Shown piece after piece: positions 535 through 45,333 of a stretch of 61,819 nt of DNA. Position 1 is the first letter of the stretch; each line of letters opens with the position of its first letter. Both the position numbers and the translations under genes were made by a program. The notes below the pieces were generated by a model. The model was not told where the DNA came from and ran no database searches. It saw nothing but the letters and a program-made list of their open reading frames with translations. Origin of the DNA: an uncultured virus (IMG/VR IMGVR_UViG_3300020046_003388) (Duplodnaviria; Heunggongvirae; Uroviricota; Caudoviricetes); the IMG/VR virus record IMGVR_UViG_3300020046_003388; one strand, 5' to 3'.

Positions 535-3500
535 ATGTCCAACGCAAGCCCCCTAGACTTCATGCAGAATGTAGGTCTCACTCAACAGAGGGAGACGCCG
601 AATATTGTGAAGCCTTGGATGAAGTACCATCGATTCGAGGTGGTAAGTACGATTGAGAAGCTTGAGTGGGTTATTCAGAAGGCCTTTGAGGCTAAGGAGT
701 GCTCCCTTGACCTGGAGACTCAGGGACTGGATACCCGAGTCTACCTCAAGCCTGTCTCAGAGTTGGAATCCCCTCACGAGATTTGGTGGGACCCAGCATC
801 ACCTCCTGCATTAGTCCCTCAATCTGTTCACAAGATTGTGGGCTACTGTCTGTCCTACGATGGCATAACGGGGTACTACGTTCCTGTTCGTCACACTGCC
901 CCAGGAGCCGTGAACGTAGACCTTGTGAGAGCTGGGCAGCTTATCTCAAAGCTGTGTCATGCAGCCCAACCTGAGTTGACAACGGAGGGACTAGCTCAGG
1001 ACCCATTAGGCAGCTACTTGATCAAAACTCCAGGTAAGATCAAGCTATACTTTTGGCACGCTAAGTTCGATCAGGAGCTACTCTACCCGGTGACAGGGAT
1101 CGACTTTTGGCATCCAGAATCCTATGAGGATGGGATGCTACTGTACTTTGTTAAGTACACTAGCGATAAAAACCTAGACCTGAAGCAGAAGTCCTTCAAA
1201 GAGCTGTTTGTACGAGACGCTCAAGGGAAGCTCATAACGGAGAACAACAACGCTATCCCCTACGAGATGATCAAGCTGAAGGAGCTGTTCTTGAAGGGGC
1301 GAGAGATTGACTTCCCTTCGCTTCACCCAGAAGAGCCAGGTGTAGTTGCCTACGCCTGCTCTGATGCCATTTGCACGTTCCTGCATTGCAAAAAGCCGGA
1401 ACTCATCAGTATGACACGGGACCCGAAGTATTTCCCGATGTATCGCCTTGAAAAGCAGTCTGCTCAGGCACTACGGGGTATGGAGCGTAATCGAGTTAAG
1501 CTCGACTTGCCCTACGTGCGATCCTTGTTTGCCGAGGCAAGAATAGAGGCAGATGGCTACCGAAATCAAATCGTTACGCTCGCTAGCGAGTATGGCTTTC
1601 CTGACTTCGACCCACAGTCTCCAGCTCAGTTGGCGGAGTTTCTATTCAAGTCCCCAAGTGGCTTGAAGATCGAGCCCAAACCAGAGCAAACCCCTAGTGG
1701 TCAGTACAAAACGGACGCTGATACCCTAGAGAAAATCGTACTAGAGAACTCAGGTGTCAATCCAATCCTTCTTGTGGTGGTCAAGTACCGACAAGTGGAA
1801 AAGGTTATTGGTACCTACTTGGAGGCTATGGTCGCTAATTGCGATGCCAACGATGAGGCCAGGGTGCAATTCAAGCAAACAGGAGCTGCAACCGGGCGTA
1901 TCTCAGCTCCTGGTGGCGACCCCAAACACGGGTACTGTGGGTTCCCTCCTCACGGTATTCCAAGCACCTATGACGAGAAGAAGCCAAAGGTAGCTACGTG
2001 CCTAAGGCAAGCTTTCATTGCTCGACCTGGTTACACGATGGTGAAGGTCGACTTTGCTGGAGAAGAGCTTAGGATTGTAACCAACCTATCTCAGGAGCCT
2101 GTCTGGATCAAAGAGTTCTTGGAGGGGACCGGGGACCTCCATACGATTACAGCAAAGGCGTTCTTCAACAAGGAAGACATCACAAAACAGGAACGCCAGC
2201 AAGGTAAGATTGCCAACTTCTCTCTCGTTTACGGAGGTGGAGTGCGGGCGATTATGAACGCAACGGGTTGCAACCAACCTGAGGCAGGTCGTAGGAAGCT
2301 AAACTTCGACAAGTCCATGCCAAGGTTTGCTGGTTGGGTCACACTCCAGAAGAAGTACATTCACGAACACAAGGGAGTGAAAACTGCTTTTGGTCGATGG
2401 ATTGCGACACCTCAGGTTGACAGCGAGGACAAGGCTCTAGTAGGTGCCGCAGAAAGGTGGTCTATAAATTATCCCATACAAGGCTGTCAAAATTTCAACT
2501 CTAGAGTTATGACTACTCAGGGGTTCAAACGTATTGGAGACTTGGAGGGTAGTGGAGAGGCATTTACCGCTTGGACCGGGTCTGTATGGGCTACAGCCAA
2601 AGCGTTCAATATGGGCCAGTGCCAGCTATCCAACATCAGATTGGCAGATGGGGCAACTGTAACGTGTGACACCCGCCACAAACTTCTTGTAGTTACCGAA
2701 GAAGGGTATAATTGGGTAGATTACCCAGAATTGAAACCAAAGGATAAGGTAGCTACCTCCCTGTGTTTCCCAGTTGAGTTCTCTCCTGAGCCGCTAGCTG
2801 GTATAACCCCTCAGAAGCTATCGAGGTTAGCTGTAACTCCAGACTCGGATCTCCAAGACTTTTGGTATTGGATGGGGCGTTACTATGGGGATGGTAACGT
2901 TTACTTGACTCACAATCCTGGTATTACTTACTCATTTGGGGACCATGAGGGGGAGGCTATTGCTCGTTGCGTTGCCTTTTGGAAGTTGTGGGGATTGAAC
3001 CCTAAAGTTAAGACAGGTACCCACCAACCAGACCAAAAAATATCGACTCGTCATCAAGTTGTCGTGTACAGCAAAGACCTTGCCTTTTGGTTAAAGTCTA
3101 TAGGAATAGAGCCTGCTACAGCGCACACCAAAAAGCTTACCCCTCGCATCCTGCAAGAGACCCTAGTCAACCGTAAAGCCTTCATGAGGGGCTTCATGGA
3201 CTCAGATGGTTGTCGCCCAACTGTCGAGAAAAATAAGGGTAACCCTTATAGCCTACATCTTTGCCAACGGGAGTTGCTTGCTGACACGAAGTTGCTTCTT
3301 CGTACGTTAGGTGTAGAGTCCTGTGTTCGTGGCCCGTACCAGTATGTCAATAAGAAAACTGGATTGGAGACGACGAGCTACCGACTAGACATCCAGCGAA
3401 GGATGTTTGAGCGTAATGTCATGGACCGTACGGACCTAAGATACGAGAAGTTTCACGACATGGAGGCCCCAAAGTTCCTTGTAGTAAACTTCTTGTCTAA

Positions 3501-4563
3501 GGGTACTTGGAAGCGGTCAGACTTCAAAGGGGACCAATCCTTGTACACTCTGTACAGTCGTATTCGTACTGGAGGCAAGGTAGGGGTGTATACCCTTGAC
3601 CGACTCTGTCGAACCTTGGGGGTTCGACTAGACCATCCTATCTACGGCTTCAAACGGCTTGTGTCCAAGACCGAGCTTGACAGAGTAGAGGACACCTACA
3701 CCCTGTCAGTCAATGACCCTCTCCATCGATTTGAGGCCGATGGGGTTATCTCAAAGAACAGTGGCGCGGATATCATGAAAATGGCCATGGTTCTCCTACA
3801 CAAGGAGTTCTACAGGCTAGGATGGTATGCTCAAGACGCCATTCGAATGTTGTTGACTGTTCATGACGAGATCGTCTTCGAGGTGAAGCACCATCTCGTA
3901 CCAGAGGCCATGCCGATCATTGAGGAGCTAATGACTCGTCCAGGTCGAATGGCTCGATGGCAAGTCCCTCTTGAGGTGGAGCCCCTGATTGACTCTACTT
4001 GGGATGCTAAGTACGACTACCACAAGATTCTCCATGGCTCCTTCAAGCCACCGAAGGAAGGAGAGAAGCTAAAGGGCCTAGACCTTCGAGTGGGTAATTA
4101 CATCTTCCACAAGGTGCCAGCTTGGTTGGAAGGCATTGTTATCCCGGATTGGCAGCGTGAAGGTTGGGACCCTAGTGCAAAGCAGCAGAAGTCGTTAGGG
4201 GCTCCAATTGCTGGAATTGTAACTCCCCCAACCGTACAAGCTCCGTCTCCGGTACAAGCTCAAGCTCAGGTCACGGCCCCTTCAGCTCTCCCCCCAGTAG
4301 CCAACCCTACAACTGCCGTAGCAGAGCCAGAGACACCTCTTACCGAGGATGACATATTCGTCTACCCTATTTACACCCTTACCGAGTTCACCATGAGGAA
4401 GGTGGCGGCTATCTGCATAGAGCTACTGGACGATGGAGACTGTAAAGTGCTCCACCTAGTCTCTGTAAAGGAGCCTGGTCAGTACGTTCTAATTGACGCG
4501 AGTCTTGGCATTCGAGTCAACCCAGAAAGTTTTGGTCGTCTAATGCGCGATCGTGGGCTATAG
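535..4563 (+). CDS. polA: Family A DNA polymerase (3'-5' exonuclease + polymerase), intein-containing, with Pro-rich C-terminal extension
   Basis: ExoI SLDLETQG, ExoII HAKFD, ExoIII YACSD; motif A KVDFAGEELR; motif B RQQGKIANFSLVYG; motif C LTVHDEIVFE. Confidence 0.96.
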   Translation: MSNASPLDFMQNVGLTQQRETPNIVKPWMKYHRFEVVSTIEKLEWVIQKAFEAKECSLDLETQGLDTRVYLKPVSELESPHEIWWDPASPPALVPQSVHKIVGYCLSYDGITGYYVPVRHTAPGAVNVDLVRAGQLISKLCHAAQPELTTEGLAQDPLGSYLIKTPGKIKLYFWHAKFDQELLYPVTGIDFWHPESYEDGMLLYFVKYTSDKNLDLKQKSFKELFVRDAQGKLITENNNAIPYEMIKLKELFLKGREIDFPSLHPEEPGVVAYACSDAICTFLHCKKPELISMTRDPKYFPMYRLEKQSAQALRGMERNRVKLDLPYVRSLFAEARIEADGYRNQIVTLASEYGFPDFDPQSPAQLAEFLFKSPSGLKIEPKPEQTPSGQYKTDADTLEKIVLENSGVNPILLVVVKYRQVEKVIGTYLEAMVANCDANDEARVQFKQTGAATGRISAPGGDPKHGYCGFPPHGIPSTYDEKKPKVATCLRQAFIARPGYTMVKVDFAGEELRIVTNLSQEPVWIKEFLEGTGDLHTITAKAFFNKEDITKQERQQGKIANFSLVYGGGVRAIMNATGCNQPEAGRRKLNFDKSMPRFAGWVTLQKKYIHEHKGVKTAFGRWIATPQVDSEDKALVGAAERWSINYPIQGCQNFNSRVMTTQGFKRIGDLEGSGEAFTAWTGSVWATAKAFNMGQCQLSNIRLADGATVTCDTRHKLLVVTEEGYNWVDYPELKPKDKVATSLCFPVEFSPEPLAGITPQKLSRLAVTPDSDLQDFWYWMGRYYGDGNVYLTHNPGITYSFGDHEGEAIARCVAFWKLWGLNPKVKTGTHQPDQKISTRHQVVVYSKDLAFWLKSIGIEPATAHTKKLTPRILQETLVNRKAFMRGFMDSDGCRPTVEKNKGNPYSLHLCQRELLADTKLLLRTLGVESCVRGPYQYVNKKTGLETTSYRLDIQRRMFERNVMDRTDLRYEKFHDMEAPKFLVVNFLSKGTWKRSDFKGDQSLYTLYSRIRTGGKVGVYTLDRLCRTLGVRLDHPIYGFKRLVSKTELDRVEDTYTLSVNDPLHRFEADGVISKNSGADIMKMAMVLLHKEFYRLGWYAQDAIRMLLTVHDEIVFEVKHHLVPEAMPIIEELMTRPGRMARWQVPLEVEPLIDSTWDAKYDYHKILHGSFKPPKEGEKLKGLDLRVGNYIFHKVPAWLEGIVIPDWQREGWDPSAKQQKSLGAPIAGIVTPPTVQAPSPVQAQAQVTAPSALPPVANPTTAVAEPETPLTEDDIFVYPIYTLTEFTMRKVAAICIELLDDGDCKVLHLVSVKEPGQYVLIDASLGIRVNPESFGRLMRDRGL
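2485..3759 (+). mobile_element. Intein (425 aa) with LAGLIDADG homing endonuclease inside polA
   Basis: Interrupts conserved NYPIQG|SGADI; starts with Cys (CQNFNSRV), ends ISKN before +1 Ser; LAGLIDADG-like motifs WMGRYYGDG and FMRGFMDSDG. Confidence 0.93.
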
Positions 4564-11317: not shown

Positions 11318-11558
11318 TGATCAAAGAGTGAATGACTTGAGTACAGCTGAGATTCAGGAGCTTGAACGACTGCGCCTACTGGCATTGCAGCATCCCTACG
11401 ACCCTGAGCTTGCAAGCATACGATCAGGTAATGGCGGGGAGTACGCACCAGACATGCGAGGCTGGACCCCAGACGAGGATGCAGAGTTCAGGTACCATGC
11501 TGCTTTGGTCAAAGCAGCTCCTAGATTACTCGCTGAAGTGCTACGTAGAAGAAGGTAA
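11304..11558 (+). CDS. hypothetical protein; start uncertain
   Basis: Fills the gap before thyA; C-terminal AAPRLLAEV pattern common in phage proteins. Confidence 0.5.
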   Translation: MKDFDDQRVNDLSTAEIQELERLRLLALQHPYDPELASIRSGNGGEYAPDMRGWTPDEDAEFRYHAALVKAAPRLLAEVLRRRR

Positions 11559-11562
11559 GCAG

Positions 11563-13272
11563 ATGCGTCAATATCTATCCCTAGTGGAACATGTGTTAGG
11601 TAGCGGAACCCGCAAGGAAAACCGGACTGGCGTAGACACTCTCAGTACCTTTGGGTACTACTACGAGGTTGATTTAGCTCACGGGTTTCCCCTCCTCACG
11701 ACCAAGCAGATCTCTTGGAAAAACATAGTGGTCGAGTTGTTGTGGTTCCTTTCGGGACAGACTGACATCTCAATCCTCAAGCGTCATGGCTGTAAGTTCT
11801 GGGACGCTTGGGCTGACGAGAACGGTAAAGTTCCAAGTGCCTATGGGGCTTTTTGGGTTAATTTCCCACCAGCTCAGGAGCCCGAAGTTGTTACTCCACG
11901 CGAACCTTCCGGAAATGACTATGTTAAGCCTCATTTTGATGAGTTGACTGCTGAGTCGAACCATGAATGGTGTGGGAAATTCTTCGAGTCGAAAAACCAC
12001 GGCTCGTTCAAGATCATTCGTCAGGTAGGTGTAGATACCGAAGGTCGTAGACTGTTCGATATTCAGTTTACAACTACGGGCTATGTTAAGAAGCGGGTGC
12101 GCCGTGATGTAATTCAAAATGGGGAGGTTCGGGATAGATACTTCGCCTCTATCCACGGAGTGGGGTACTATGGAGAGCGGACAACCAAAACTGAGATAGA
12201 CGCGGATCTCCTCAAGGTTTGGCAGCACATGATGGACCGTTGCTATAACCCTGACTGTAAAGAGTACCCATGGTATGGCTTGAGAGGCGTTACAGTGTGC
12301 AACAGATGGCACAACTTCGCTAACTTCCACGCAGACTGCTACACGCTACCAAACTGGGTCAACAAGAGGGACAATCCAAAGCAGTACGCCCTAGATAAGG
12401 ATTTTTTCAGCGCCCGTTGTTACTCTCCTACTACCTGTGTATGGCTTTCTCACCAGGATAATCGACTTTACGCTCACGCCAAGGCAGTTAAGGTCGAATA
12501 CCCTGATGGTGGGGTTCGAGTTGTCTTGTCAGCATCTGAGGCTGCTGCTGCCTCGAAACTCAAGAAGAGTCGTGTACTTACCTGCATCCAAAATGGAGAG
12601 GATTACCACAAGTATAGGTTCTCATGGGCCTCTGGGGTGTACCGTAGACCACTCCCGAATAACCAGATCCGATGGGTTATCGACGAGCTAAACCGAAACC
12701 CCATGTCTCGACGTATGGTTGTTTCTGCTTGGGCTCCAGGGAACGCTCAGACCAGTAAGCTCCCACCCTGCCACAGCATCTTCATGCTTAATGTGCAGAA
12801 TGCGAACCAGATTGAGTTCCACCCGCCAAAAGAGAATGATGATGGTCGAACTCTAGTACCTACCATCATGGGTACTAAACAGAGGGTATGCCTTCACCTC
12901 ACCCAGAGGTCCGCTGACGTCCTTTTGGGCGTACCCTATAACATTGCAAGCTACGCACTGCTTCTCAGTTTGTTCTCTCGCTTCTCTGGGATTGAGCCTG
13001 GTATCTTTGGGCACACCTTGGTGGACGCGCATGTTTACACAGCTAAACCAGATGGTTCGATGGCCGAGTACGACCACGTTCCTGTTTTGAAGGAGCAGTT
13101 GACTCGGATGCCAAAAGCCCTTCCGAGGCTTATCATCTCGAACCAGATCAAGACCCTAGCTGACGTAGAGGCTCTCATGCACCCCTCCGTAACAACAGAG
13201 GAGGTCATGCGTCACTTCGTGCTTGAGGGCTATGATCCTTGGCCAGCCCTATCTGGAAAGGTTGCGGTATGA
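11563..13272 (+). CDS. thyA: Thymidylate synthase with in-frame HNH endonuclease insertion
   Basis: MRQYL..NRTG, FPLLTTK, ELLWF, catalytic LPPCH, QRSAD..GVPYN, DAHVY; true start at ATG 11563. Confidence 0.95.
   Translation: MRQYLSLVEHVLGSGTRKENRTGVDTLSTFGYYYEVDLAHGFPLLTTKQISWKNIVVELLWFLSGQTDISILKRHGCKFWDAWADENGKVPSAYGAFWVNFPPAQEPEVVTPREPSGNDYVKPHFDELTAESNHEWCGKFFESKNHGSFKIIRQVGVDTEGRRLFDIQFTTTGYVKKRVRRDVIQNGEVRDRYFASIHGVGYYGERTTKTEIDADLLKVWQHMMDRCYNPDCKEYPWYGLRGVTVCNRWHNFANFHADCYTLPNWVNKRDNPKQYALDKDFFSARCYSPTTCVWLSHQDNRLYAHAKAVKVEYPDGGVRVVLSASEAAAASKLKKSRVLTCIQNGEDYHKYRFSWASGVYRRPLPNNQIRWVIDELNRNPMSRRMVVSAWAPGNAQTSKLPPCHSIFMLNVQNANQIEFHPPKENDDGRTLVPTIMGTKQRVCLHLTQRSADVLLGVPYNIASYALLLSLFSRFSGIEPGIFGHTLVDAHVYTAKPDGSMAEYDHVPVLKEQLTRMPKALPRLIISNQIKTLADVEALMHPSVTTEEVMRHFVLEGYDPWPALSGKVAV
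11869..12657 (+). mobile_element. HNH-type homing endonuclease domain (~260 aa) embedded in thyA; boundaries approximate
   Basis: GVGYYG, WQHMMDRCY, YGLRGVTVCNRWHNFANF, LDKD..YSPTTC; C-terminal NUMOD1-like SASEAA..SRVLTC. Confidence 0.85.
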
Positions 13273-13850
13273 CTCAACTTGAATTTCTTCTATCTGAGGT
13301 AGCTTGGCTTACAAGAGAGCTTGAGTACCTACCAGACTCCGCACCTATTACCAAAGCTTCAACGAGATCACGTCTAGCTGAGGTGGGAAGGCAGTTAGAG
13401 TTTGAACGTTCGCGTAAAGCTACAACAGTGAATGGTAGATTTGTGTCTGGTTCGTGCCTAGGTGAAATTTGCTCTATCTGCATAAAGCACCTTGGCGTTC
13501 GCGTTACAGCCACTTGCAAGGTCGGAGAAGAGATAGCGGTCGATGACCCTAACCTACCTAGGCACAACCTAACTGCGTATCTCTGTTCAAGGCACTTCGA
13601 TGAGATCTTTAGTCCTCCAACTGGAGTAGCTAGTGTTGGACAACAGGGTATTGAACGACTTCAGGTGACTCTAGCTCAGACAGAGGGTGAGCTAGAGACG
13701 GCACGTCTTCGTATTCATGAAGCCACTCAAAAGCTTGTTGCTGAGTTTGGAGCAGAAAGCTCAGCCAGTCTAGAAGAAGTGGTCGAAAAGGCTGTTGTCG
13801 CAATTCGCACCCCCCTGCTGATTGGGGGTGGGTACGGATATGAAACCTAA
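13269..13850 (+). CDS. hypothetical protein with putative Zn finger and coiled coil
   Basis: ATGA overlap with thyA; CSIC...CSRH. Confidence 0.65.
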   Translation: MTQLEFLLSEVAWLTRELEYLPDSAPITKASTRSRLAEVGRQLEFERSRKATTVNGRFVSGSCLGEICSICIKHLGVRVTATCKVGEEIAVDDPNLPRHNLTAYLCSRHFDEIFSPPTGVASVGQQGIERLQVTLAQTEGELETARLRIHEATQKLVAEFGAESSASLEEVVEKAVVAIRTPLLIGGGYGYET

Positions 13851-14430
13851 GCTCATTGTAGCTACCAGTGCGAACGGGGTAATTGGGATCGACGGTAAGA
13901 TCCCATGGCGCAAACCAGAGGACTTGAAGCGATTCAAGAGAGTCACTCTTGGTGGCGTACTCATCATGGGTAGGCGGACTTGGGACTCGATTGGGAGGGC
14001 GCTACCGGGGCGTAGGACGTTTGTTCTGAGTTCCAACCCCGACCTAAAGCTGGAGGGAGCTGAGGTCTTCTCAAGCCTTCCTGACGCTTTAGCGGCAGCA
14101 GGAGAGACCGACCAGGTCTGGATTGCAGGTGGGTCTTCTGTTTATGCGGAAGGTCTTCAGTACTGCGATGAGCTAGACATCACGGTTGTGAATTCTGAAA
14201 TTGCCGAGGGACCAGGCGTAGTAACTATCCCATGGTTTGCAGCCAACCGTAACGAAAAGTTAGGTATCCCAATTTGGATTTCTGCCAATAGCAAGTGTGT
14301 GAGTCCAATGATAGGGGACCCAATGGTGGGGGACTTCCACCTAACCAATCAAGAAACTAACCCAGAGGACGGCTCTCTTGTCCACTGCGAGTACACTCGA
14401 ATAACTTTTATCCACTACAGCACTAGGTAA
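13840..14430 (+). CDS. folA: Dihydrofolate reductase
   Basis: LIVATSANGVIGIDGKIPW..EDLKRFKRVT, IMGRRTWDSIGRALPGRR, WIAGGSSVY. Confidence 0.93.
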   Translation: MKPKLIVATSANGVIGIDGKIPWRKPEDLKRFKRVTLGGVLIMGRRTWDSIGRALPGRRTFVLSSNPDLKLEGAEVFSSLPDALAAAGETDQVWIAGGSSVYAEGLQYCDELDITVVNSEIAEGPGVVTIPWFAANRNEKLGIPIWISANSKCVSPMIGDPMVGDFHLTNQETNPEDGSLVHCEYTRITFIHYSTR

Positions 14431-44494: not shown

Positions 44495-45333
44495 AGCCCG
44501 ATAGCCTAAAACCTTGGGCTATCTATAAGCTCACAGACCCACGTGAGCCTGATGTTGTTAGGTACATTGGCAAAACGCACCTCGCTGACCCCAGACGTCG
44601 CCTTCGAAAACACCTGACTGAGGCTGTGTCCGGACGGGATAAAACTTACTGCGGTAACTGGAAAAGGTCACTACTGGACGCTGGGGTCGAACCCTGTCTA
44701 ACCATCATTGAATTAGGGGAAGGAGAAGGATGGGCGGATGCTGAGATGTATTGGATCACACACTATCAAAATGACGCTCGCTCACGTCTGACTAACTTGA
44801 CGAAAGGGGGCGTAGGCATAGTTGGGTATCAGCATAGCCCTGAGACGAGAGAAAAGATTGCAGGCGCTCTTCTTGGTCACGTGGTATCCGTGACCACACG
44901 AGAAAAACTTCGTCATGCTAACACCGGTCGTATTGCACCCAGAGATCAAGTGGAAAGATCATCGGCTGCCCGTCGAGGCAAAAAACGGTCTGCATCTGCG
45001 ATTGAGAAAACAGCCGCTGCGAAGAGGGGTACAAAACACACCCCCGAAGCTATTGAGAAAATGAGAGCTTCCAAGCTTGGTCAAAAGCATACTGAGGAGG
45101 CAAAAGCCAAAATTAGTGCAGCTAATAAGGGGAAAATCCTATCCCCTGAATCCAGAGCCAAGATAGCCGCTGCCGCAATAGGGCGTATACTGTCGGACGA
45201 GACCAAAGCCAAGATGAATGCCGCCAAAAGGGGCCGAAAACAAACCACAGAAACTATTGCTAAACGAGTGGCCACTCGAAAAATCAATCGTGAGTCAAGA
45301 AAAGAGCGCAAAGATGAGCACTACGTCGCATAA
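44491..45333 (+). CDS. GIY-YIG homing endonuclease with NUMOD3 repeats
   Basis: AIYKL..RYIGKT, R..KH, E.YWI, LTN.T.GG; repeated H(S/T)xE(T/A)xxK(I/M) units. Confidence 0.9.
   Translation: MKPDSLKPWAIYKLTDPREPDVVRYIGKTHLADPRRRLRKHLTEAVSGRDKTYCGNWKRSLLDAGVEPCLTIIELGEGEGWADAEMYWITHYQNDARSRLTNLTKGGVGIVGYQHSPETREKIAGALLGHVVSVTTREKLRHANTGRIAPRDQVERSSAARRGKKRSASAIEKTAAAKRGTKHTPEAIEKMRASKLGQKHTEEAKAKISAANKGKILSPESRAKIAAAAIGRILSDETKAKMNAAKRGRKQTTETIAKRVATRKINRESRKERKDEHYVA

What the first reader, a model, noticed from the sequence alone, without database searches (positions are those of the whole stretch)
11563..13272. Complete HNH homing endonuclease fused in frame inside thymidylate synthase, with no intein signature
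Seen: about 260 aa (11869-12657) sit between YGAFWVNFP and NQI with no stop or frameshift. The insert has no N-terminal Cys/Ser, no terminal (H)N followed by C/S/T, and no recognisable HINT blocks. It is a full phage-type HNH plus a NUMOD1-like DNA-binding tail. Both ThyA halves keep their catalytic motifs (PCH, RSAD, PYN, HVY). Established: this WRxW...DQI loop is length-variable among TS enzymes, and endonucleases in phage thyA normally travel in group I introns (T4 td) or inteins. Inference: either a splicing-free homing element tolerated as a permanent domain of an active bifunctional enzyme, or removal by cryptic RNA splicing or ribosomal bypassing. The usual W-R reads W-V here, and YRRPLP at the 3' junction could supply the Arg after a splice.
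Basis: partly seen in the sequence, partly recalled or inferred. Interest (0 to 1): 0.8.

Follow-up and report, generated by a model that had tools for sequence, protein, structure and literature searches.

The report
Splice-free nuclease grafted inside thymidylate synthase
A DNA-cutting gene sits permanently inside a surface loop of the thymidine-making enzyme of many phages and a few bacteria, apparently spreading like an intron or intein but without being spliced out, which would be an undescribed way for a selfish gene to live inside a core gene.

Summary
Confirmed and widespread. Window 11563-13272 is one stop-free 569-aa ThyA in which aa 103-365 hold a whole free-standing-type nuclease (SH3/Tudor-like barrel, His-less HNH-like core with D-K-D, I-HmuI-type HTH). 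It is no chimera: an independent 92%-identical contig spans both junctions. No HINT fold, intein junction or group I/II intron was found; the group I model did detect T4's three introns. Only 34+15 codons lie outside the nuclease. The predicted fold closes a complete TS around the insert (TM 0.93 to E. coli TS). The fusion occurs in 69 of the top 150 50%-identity clusters hit, in cultured phages (UE-S1, KP13-7, Kioshi, 015DV002) and as the only thyA found in an Acidobacteriota genome bin. TS catalytic residues are retained (Cys 87/87). Patchy distribution and two-sided co-conversion tracts indicate homing. The W-V oddity is a natural variant paired with D-to-N, not a splice clue. Best reading: a non-splicing homing element tolerated as a permanent domain of an active TS. 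Neither activity has been assayed, and the nuclease lacks the HNH histidine. Ten full-text searches found no description.

The parts
11563..11868 (+). ThyA N-terminal part (aa 1-102), ending in YGAFWVNFP; V99 pairs with N367 in place of the usual R-D
   Evidence: PF00303; alignment with insert-free relatives; covariation
11869..11955 (+). 5' linker of the insert (aa 103-131); predicted strand 108-110, inferred to pair with 359-361; V110 is V/I in 74/87, P112 in 52/87
   Evidence: DSSP on the model; conservation
11956..12132 (+). SH3/Tudor-like beta-barrel (aa 132-190); free-standing relatives begin at this point; not a HINT domain
   Evidence: VIA-align Z 4-6.7 to Tudor/KOW/SH3 barrels; alignment with free-standing proteins
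12151..12477 (+). His-less HNH-like (beta-beta-alpha-metal type) nuclease core (aa 197-305): W220..MxxRCY, D278-K279-D280 (12394-12402), Y287, C292-x-W294, N300
   Evidence: phrog_2081; strands 275-278 and 293-296 plus helix 297-305; weak match to PacI, Z 4.2-5.0; conservation
12478..12633 (+). I-HmuI/NUMOD1-like helix-turn-helix DNA-binding domain (aa 306-357)
   Evidence: VIA Z 9.4 to 1u3e, Z 6.2 to the I-TevI DNA-binding domain; hmmsearch E 2e-5; PF22083 in 47 of 111 aligned members
12634..12657 (+). 3' linker (aa 358-365, GVYRRPLP); R361 conserved in 72/87
12658..13272 (+). ThyA C-terminal part (aa 366-569) with R383/R384, catalytic C403 (12769-12771), QRSAD, N460, H490/Y492
   Evidence: PF00303 E 1.9e-78; TM 0.93 to E. 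coli TS; conservation
13840..14430 (+). Dihydrofolate reductase, two genes downstream; the usual partner of ThyA
   Evidence: PF00186 E 8e-40

Best explanation
A non-splicing homing element. A complete free-standing-type phage endonuclease, with two short linkers, has replaced the tip of the variable surface hairpin of ThyA (E. coli W98-D110 region; numbering recalled). Shown: one reading frame, no splicing apparatus found, intact TS motifs, a model in which both TS halves close into a full TS fold around the insert, patchy distribution and two-sided co-conversion tracts. Inferred: the mRNA is translated into one bifunctional polypeptide that still makes dTMP. In mixed infection its nuclease nicks or cuts conserved thyA sequence near the hairpin in an element-free rival genome. 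Repair off the element-bearing allele copies the insert plus tens to about 100 flanking thyA codons, in some lineages including the catalytic-Cys loop. The element is immune through sequence differences in that co-converted tract. Neutrality comes from insertion into a loop that tolerates large inserts, not from RNA or protein splicing. With no His at the general-base position, catalysis may use the conserved Tyr287, as PacI uses a Tyr (inference).
For: Family size: 69 of the best 150 50%-identity representatives hit by the insert carry both TS halves around it in one ORF; ESM Atlas clusters of 54, 124 and 116 members, 80-95% viral. Cultured phages with a stop-free fusion: 015DV002, KP13-7, UE-S1, ph0011, Kioshi at this loop, PTm1 at a nearby loop. 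A DNA pattern that does not require an ORF gave 20 true loci of 29 viral matches, all with TS-N, nuclease and the TS after-loop in one frame, and 9 true of 41 genome matches, 8 in one frame. TS residues in 87 fusions: C403 87, W80 87, E58 86, R449 86, D452 86, N460 84; nuclease W220, W249 and DKD 87, Y287 86. UE-S1 vs KP13-7: dN/dS 0.04-0.13 in the nuclease core, with synonymous sites free to vary (pS 0.27-0.59; 0.46 in the last 15 codons). Mobility: the 7 alleles with this insert type need 7 changes on the distal TS tree, and their monophyly is rejected (AU p 1e-33), while their nucleases form one 100%-support clade. P0009 carries another insert with foreign TS flanks (6/17 and 12/25 identical to P0002) in a background otherwise 45/45, 39/40, 34/34 identical to P0002. 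UE-S1 equals phage 121Q at both gene ends (pN 0 at aa 1-50) but equals Klebsiella phage KP13-7 in the middle (pN 0 vs 0.41 at aa 365-414). It is the only thyA found, with no thyX, in G001 and in Acidobacteriota bin G006, beside DHFR and metabolic genes. AlphaFold pLDDT 96, pTM 0.91; TM 0.93 to E. coli TS. One 151-nt record of an RNA library spans the 3' junction unspliced.
Against: Neither TS nor nuclease activity is measured. The canonical HNH His is absent and the structural match of the core to His-Me enzymes is weak (Z 4-5). Insert and TS identities are partly correlated among the 7 close alleles (rho 0.58, non-independent pairs), so some co-inheritance is vertical, and ordinary phage recombination can also make mosaics. 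The phage could use the host's dTMP. The G004 copy has a frame shift in an A-run, and completeness of bins G004/G006 is not given. The RNA-library record may be DNA. The DNA pattern fixed the 3' spacing, so only the 5' junction was tested without bias, and its hits include near-duplicates and the window's own contig. Some related proteins carry the nuclease in a decayed TS shell, so TS activity is not kept in every lineage.
Confidence: 0.72

Rival explanations
1. Same permanent fusion, but the nuclease is domesticated rather than homing: a DNA-binding or nicking domain kept for competition against co-infecting phages, autoregulation, or tethering TS to phage DNA; it spreads by ordinary recombination under positive selection.
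For: No His at the general-base position; strong purifying selection on the core; partial vertical co-inheritance; an intron endonuclease used for interference is reported (PMC11620839, search listing only).
Against: Rare and patchy among close kin: 3 of 116 matching phage records cover the UE-S1 allele in full, and only G004 shows a nuclease-covering match among the listed rows of 151 family genomes. Two-sided co-conversion centred on the insert. The same family is intron-borne in Bastillevirinae polymerase genes (PMC11878797 section 15) and free-standing beside thyA in phage Chotacabras.
Confidence: 0.13
2. The insert homes, but the fused TS is inactive or crippled; the phage relies on host dTMP and the TS frame only supplies expression.
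For: Decayed TS shells around an intact nuclease exist (P0136, P0212, P0230, P0231, P0236); phages can often use the host's ThyA (own knowledge).
Against: Catalytic residues kept in 84-87 of 87 fusions spanning <50% identity; compensated R-D / x-N pair across the insert; only thyA found in bin G006; complete TS fold in the model.
Confidence: 0.06
3. A cryptic group I/II intron or a ribosomal bypass removes the insert at RNA level.
For: The nuclease family also lives in group I introns (PMC11878797); phage thyA genes do carry introns (PMC4528723 passages).
Against: RF00028 finds T4's three introns and the nrdA intron of 015DV002 but nothing in G001, UE-S1 or Kioshi, nor at 015DV002's thyA. RF00029 finds nothing in the four phage records. 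Only 34+15 codons lie outside nuclease homology, against 350 +/- 108 non-coding nt in phage group I introns. No P7 GACTA/TAGTC pair in the window insert, present in the T4 control. No excess RNA folding (z -1.05 to +1.13). No stop codon to bypass. Synonymous sites vary at the junctions.
Confidence: 0.04
4. A divergent intein or other self-processing removes the insert at protein level.
For: Inteins with in-frame HNH and inteins in thymidylate synthase exist (10.1101/2025.01.02.630785 passages).
Against: No intein Pfam family in 111 aligned members; no HINT structure among fold matches, and all domains are otherwise assigned; HN[CST] at 0 of 82 3' junctions; linkers far too short for a HINT domain.
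Confidence: 0.03
5. Assembly chimera.
For: The window comes from a metagenomic contig.
Against: Independent 92%-identical contig spans both junctions; dozens of divergent homologues; cultured phage genomes.
Confidence: 0.01

Closest known systems
Group I intron-encoded homing endonucleases in phage thyA (T4 td/I-TevI; Bacillus phage beta22 and Bobb thy introns) and phrog_2081 nucleases in Bastillevirinae polymerase introns
   Same: Endonuclease inside a nucleotide-metabolism gene; the same PHROG family is intron-borne elsewhere; homing-type distribution.
   Different: No ribozyme, no separate ORF or stop, and a GIY-YIG in those thyA introns versus an HNH-like nuclease here; the nuclease stays in the enzyme's polypeptide, in a variable loop.
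Inteins with in-frame HNH endonuclease; inteins in thymidylate synthase (actinobacteriophages)
   Same: In-frame insertion translated with the host protein.
   Different: No HINT domain or splice-junction residues; nothing removes the insert.
Free-standing homing endonucleases that split genes: Aeh1 mobE in nrdA (PMC3045599 abstract) and T4 MobA in gene 39/60 (10.1101/2022.08.31.505936 passages)
   Same: Non-splicing solution to insertion in a core gene; the element brings extra linker peptides and a replacement copy of host sequence.
   Different: Those split the host gene into two polypeptides and keep the nuclease as a separate ORF; here everything is one chain.
Yeast WHO elements (10.1101/2020.01.20.913210 abstract)
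   Same: Homing without splicing, by replacing part of the host gene each time.
   Different: WHO sits beside FBA1 as a separate gene and replaces its 3' end; this element sits inside the protein and replaces a central tract.
I-HmuI (HNH nickase), PacI (Tyr-type His-Me), NixI
   Same: I-HmuI-type C-terminal HTH (Z 9.4); beta-beta-alpha arrangement; His-less centre with a conserved loop Tyr recalls PacI (PMC5714182 passages).
   Different: D-K-D instead of D-H; N-terminal SH3/Tudor-like barrel; no sequence comparison with NixI was made; no activity shown.
Thymidylate synthase ThyA (PF00303)
   Same: All catalytic motifs and the full fold.
   Different: A 263-aa insert in a loop that is about 5-50 aa in insert-free relatives.

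Membership tests
Thymidylate synthase ThyA | PF00303 above cut-off and TS fold | tested here: met
   263.8 bits vs cut-off 24.3; TM 0.93 to E. coli TS, VIA Z 33
Thymidylate synthase ThyA | Catalytic Cys, Arg pair, QRSxD, Asn, H-x-Y retained | tested here: met
   Present in the window protein; 84-87 of 87 fusions
Thymidylate synthase ThyA | Homodimer and dUMP methylation activity | not testable with these tools
Group I intron | Ribozyme core detectable by covariance model | tested here: not met
   RF00028: 0 matches at E<=1 in G001, UE-S1 and Kioshi; positive controls T4 (3 introns) and 015DV002 nrdA found
Group I intron | Room for P1-P9 outside the ORF and a P7 pairing | tested here: not met
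   34+15 codons outside nuclease homology vs 350 +/- 108 nt; no GACTA/TAGTC pair
Group II intron | Domain V/VI model match | tested here: not met
   RF00029: none in G001 or three cultured-phage records; controls ring in 5 of 14 genomes
Intein | N-terminal C/S nucleophile and terminal (H)N followed by C/S/T | tested here: not met
   None in the window insert; HN[CST] in 0 of 82 fusions
Intein | HINT domain by sequence profile | tested here: not met
   No intein Pfam family among 111 members at E<=0.01; linkers of 34 and 15 aa
Intein | HINT fold by structure search | tested here: inconclusive
   The beta-rich part matches Tudor/SH3 barrels; absence from the lists does not by itself exclude the fold
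Programmed ribosomal bypass (T4 gene 60 type) | In-frame stop after the take-off codon and a coding gap | tested here: not met
   No stop in 570 codons
Canonical HNH (His-Me finger) nuclease | beta-beta-alpha motif with metal-binding D and terminal N/H | tested here: inconclusive
   Predicted strands 275-278 and 293-296, helix 297-305; D278, N300; only weak structural match, PacI Z 4.2-5.0
Canonical HNH (His-Me finger) nuclease | Catalytic His general base after the first strand | tested here: not met
   K279 in 87 of 87; a Tyr substitute is known in PacI (PMC5714182), candidate Y287 86/87
Homing endonuclease gene | Optional occurrence with empty alleles in close kin and co-conversion of flanks | tested here: met
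Homing endonuclease gene | Site-specific cleavage of the empty allele and biased inheritance | not testable with these tools
   Needs biochemistry and phage crosses

The most novel reading that the evidence does not exclude
This is a third, unspliced way for a homing parasite to sit neutrally inside a core gene: a loop-grafted endonuclease that stays a permanent domain of an active enzyme, rewrites the central part of thyA (up to the catalytic loop) each time it homes, moves across phage genera and into bacterial chromosomes, and uses the obligate TS homodimer to pair two His-less, Tyr-type nicking heads into a double-strand cutter, tying dTMP supply to competition between co-infecting genomes.
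Probability: 0.3. Interest if true: 0.9.

Novelty: new variant of a known kind. Interest (0 to 1): 0.78.

Why it matters
Homing endonucleases are classed as intron-borne, intein-borne or free-standing, on the premise that insertion in a core gene must be spliced out or must split the gene. A family of at least 69 divergent clusters that simply stays in the enzyme breaks that premise, and suggests that permissive loops in other enzymes hide similar elements under ordinary annotations (these are all annotated 'thymidylate synthase' or 'hypothetical'). Cultured E. coli jumbo phages with and without the insert (UE-S1 vs 121Q/PBECO4) make homing, self-immunity and bifunctionality directly testable. 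The co-conversion tracts show such an element moving active-site segments of ThyA between phage genera. The His-less D-K-D nuclease family is large (1,937 representatives at E<=1e-10) and, as far as found here, has no solved structure or assayed member.

Tried and rejected
All-family Rfam scans found no intron, but the T4 td control was also missed, so they were set aside in favour of the single-family search with working controls. My idea that the W-V/N-Q change is the element's self-immunity mark was weakened: the pair occurs in 7 of 20 insert-free bacterial thyA genes, although 102 of 104 insert-free close relatives are R-D. A search for other host proteins with longer fusions found nothing because only proteins of 798-2275 aa were scanned; this is no evidence. 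No HINT chain appeared in the fold-search lists. phmmer of the insert against PDB gave only noise; NCBIfam named no nuclease family; the Atlas search on the core gave no HNH Pfam and no hit at 0.9 or above. The nuclease tree is a quick tree on 132 columns and cannot say how often fusion arose; several 'free' rows look like pieces of fusions. No internal start with a ribosome-binding site was evident in the insert. Earlier scan findings were not available. 9 of 29 viral and 32 of 41 genome pattern matches were chance and dropped. No spliced or joined form appeared in the four runs laid, but cover in the RNA run was too thin to count as absence.

Full report
Observation. Window 11563-13272 is one 569-codon frame without a stop. 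PF00303 matches in two pieces. The middle matches phrog_2081 'HNH endonuclease' at E 6e-47. GC is flat across the insert, 0.47-0.51. The window matches a 379,936-bp virus record with terminal repeats (G001, estimated 79% complete) that has this single thyA and no thyX and is identical over the ORF. DNA polymerase, DHFR, ClpX-like and methyltransferase genes lie nearby. An independent riverine contig covers both junctions in one piece at about 92% identity; a 151-nt record of another DNA run bridges the 5' junction, and one of an RNA library bridges the 3' junction unspliced, though that may be DNA. The feature is real.

Anatomy. Against insert-free relatives the insert replaces a hypervariable loop between W98-x-x-F-P and N/D-Q. 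Free-standing relatives start at about aa 135 and end at about aa 357. In the window protein only 34 residues separate W98 from nuclease homology and 15 separate its end from Q368; medians are 36 and 14 in 85 of 87 fusions (the profile included a few probable fusion fragments). AlphaFold (111 rows; pLDDT 96.2, pTM 0.91) closes the two TS parts into a whole TS fold (TM 0.93 over E. coli TS; Z 33). Short strands at 108-110 and 359-361 suggest a two-stranded stalk (pairing inferred from DSSP); V110, P112 and R361 are conserved. The insert has three domains: an SH3/Tudor-like barrel (aa 132-190), a core with a strand-strand-helix end that matches PacI weakly (Z 4.2-5.0), and an I-HmuI-type HTH (Z 9.4, rmsd 2.7, 64 residues). 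The position of the HNH histidine is Lys in L-D-K-D in 87 of 87. PacI uses a loop Tyr instead of His (PMC5714182, passages), and Y287 is kept in 86 of 87, so a Tyr-type centre is a reasonable but untested guess.

No splicing. The group I model finds all three T4 introns and the nrdA intron of phage 015DV002, yet nothing in G001, UE-S1 or Kioshi and nothing at the thyA of 015DV002. The group II model finds nothing in the four phage records. Earlier all-family scans missed the T4 control and carry little weight. Phage group I introns have 350 +/- 108 non-coding bases (PMC11878797, section 15); there is no such room here. The P7 motif pair is in the T4 control but not the window insert; Kioshi has chance pairs. 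Folding energies are ordinary (z -1.05 to +1.13). No intein family appears in 111 aligned proteins and HN[CST] is absent from 82 of 82 scored junctions. There is no stop to bypass.

A large family. Of the best 150 representatives at 50% identity hit by the insert, 69 have both TS halves around it and 74 have some TS. The Atlas shows clusters of 54, 124 and 116 such proteins. Cultured phages carry stop-free fusions: Bacillus phages 015DV002 and Kioshi, Klebsiella phage KP13-7 (phiKp_21 is 99.5% identical), E. coli phages UE-S1 and ph0011, and, at a neighbouring loop, Tenacibaculum phage PTm1. Phage Chotacabras has the same nuclease type free-standing just upstream of an intact thyA. To avoid finding only intact ORFs I scanned DNA for nuclease-plus-TS motifs. 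20 of 29 viral matches were true, and all 20 have TS-N, nuclease and the following TS in one frame; they include the window's own contig and near-duplicates. 9 of 41 genome matches were true, 8 in one frame. This tests the 5' junction only, since the 3' spacing was fixed. In Acidobacteriota bin G006 the fusion is the only thyA found, there is no thyX, and it lies beside DHFR, a CoA ligase and an enoyl-CoA hydratase. G004 is similar, with a neighbour shared by 11 of 27 relatives' loci, but has a frame shift in an A-run. Three other genomes also have a normal thyA.

Both parts are under selection. In 87 fusions C403 and W80 are invariant and E58, R449, D452, N460, H490 and Y492 are kept in 84-86. 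Between UE-S1 and KP13-7 the nuclease core has dN/dS 0.04-0.13 while synonymous sites vary throughout the insert, 0.46 in its last 15 codons.

It moves. The seven close alleles with the window's insert type need seven changes on a tree of the TS part beyond the catalytic Cys; four have an insert-free sister at starred support, and holding them together is rejected (AU p 1.2e-33; 37 rows; one search agrees on 119 rows). The nucleases of the six of them in that tree form one clade at 100%. P0002, P0012 and P0009 are nearly the same TS with this insert, no insert and a second insert type; P0009 has foreign TS sequence for about 40 codons on each side. UE-S1 matches phage 121Q at both gene ends but the Klebsiella phage allele from about aa 93 to beyond the catalytic loop; only 3 of 116 matching phage records hold the full allele. 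Only G004 shows the insert among the listed rows of 151 family genomes (this tally includes five unpublished genomes). Against: insert and TS identities correlate among the seven (rho 0.58), so part of the history is vertical, and general recombination can make mosaics.

Mechanism. Most likely (0.72) a homing element that is made harmless by where it sits, not by splicing. Shown: frame, anatomy, conservation, patchiness, co-conversion. Inferred: one bifunctional protein; cleavage of conserved thyA sequence near the loop in element-free genomes, since the loop itself is too variable to be the target; immunity through the co-converted flanks; repair-driven copying. Rivals: domesticated non-homing domain 0.13, inactive TS 0.06, RNA splicing or bypass 0.04, protein processing 0.03, chimera 0.01. 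Whether the insert fits the TS dimer, and whether dimerisation pairs two nicking heads, could not be modelled.

Known systems. Intron-borne GIY-YIG enzymes in phage thyA (PMC4528723 and PMC2988022, passages), HNH-bearing inteins (10.1101/2025.01.02.630785, passages), gene-splitting mobE and MobA (PMC3045599, abstract; 10.1101/2022.08.31.505936, passages) and yeast WHO elements (10.1101/2020.01.20.913210, abstract) are the nearest. It works like a homing endonuclease gene; it fails the membership tests for intron, intein and bypass, and lacks the His of a canonical HNH. Ten full-text searches and passage searches in PMC10448857, PMC7824862, PMC11878797, PMC9410903 and PMC5714182 found no description of an unspliced TS-nuclease fusion. 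The library lacks most subscription papers and I read no supplements; those of the jumbo-phage survey (PMC7824862) could list the architecture. E. coli residue numbering and the obligate TS dimer are recalled, not from a call.

Verdict. A real, widespread, apparently undescribed variant of homing element, testable with cultured phages. Interest 0.78.

Noticed in passing
window 11558-11683 and 13244-13269 (run X7, record 15): A 92%-identical relative has 921 other bases in place of 11559-11682 and 1155 in place of 13245-13268, i.e. further inserts at both ends of thyA; the locus looks like a hot spot for mobile genes.
   Followed up: no
proteins P0136, P0212, P0230, P0231, P0236: The same nuclease, intact, inside what looks like a decayed TS shell that no longer scores as TS; P0136 adds a second DRID-type nuclease at its C-terminus. 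Possibly the end state in which the enzyme dies and the nuclease remains.
   Followed up: partly
protein P0215: N-terminal DHFR piece (PF00186 aa 16-44, E 1e-4) fused to the nuclease and ending in the YRYEL linker motif; the element may also have entered DHFR.
   Followed up: no
L006:1501-3084 (PTm1); P0227, P0232, P0239, P0269: A second insertion site in ThyA, upstream of the G-x-x-Y-G motif, used by related nucleases.
   Followed up: partly
L088: A fusion whose TS frame ends just after Y-Q-R, suggesting an additional interruption, perhaps a true intron, in the same gene; another nuclease fragment lies directly upstream.
   Followed up: no
L107 about 4530-4545 (G004): Chromosomal fused thyA with a frame shift in a run of A's in the 5' linker: sequencing error, recent break or slippage site.
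   Followed up: partly
window 44746-45330: ORF matching phrog_314 GIY-YIG-type homing endonuclease (E 2e-18), overlapping the start of a 792-aa phrog_2426 gene.
   Followed up: no
window 12790-12880: A second variable loop of this ThyA clade, after NVQN, ranges from a few to over 100 aa among relatives; these jumbo-phage enzymes tolerate inserts at two places.
   Followed up: no
window 535-4560: 1342-aa DNA polymerase A-type ORF matched in separate stretches; not checked for inteins or inserts.
   Followed up: no
G001:C1:185078-185524: A 353-aa frame with two short matches to the nuclease's W..M..RCY segment.
   Followed up: no
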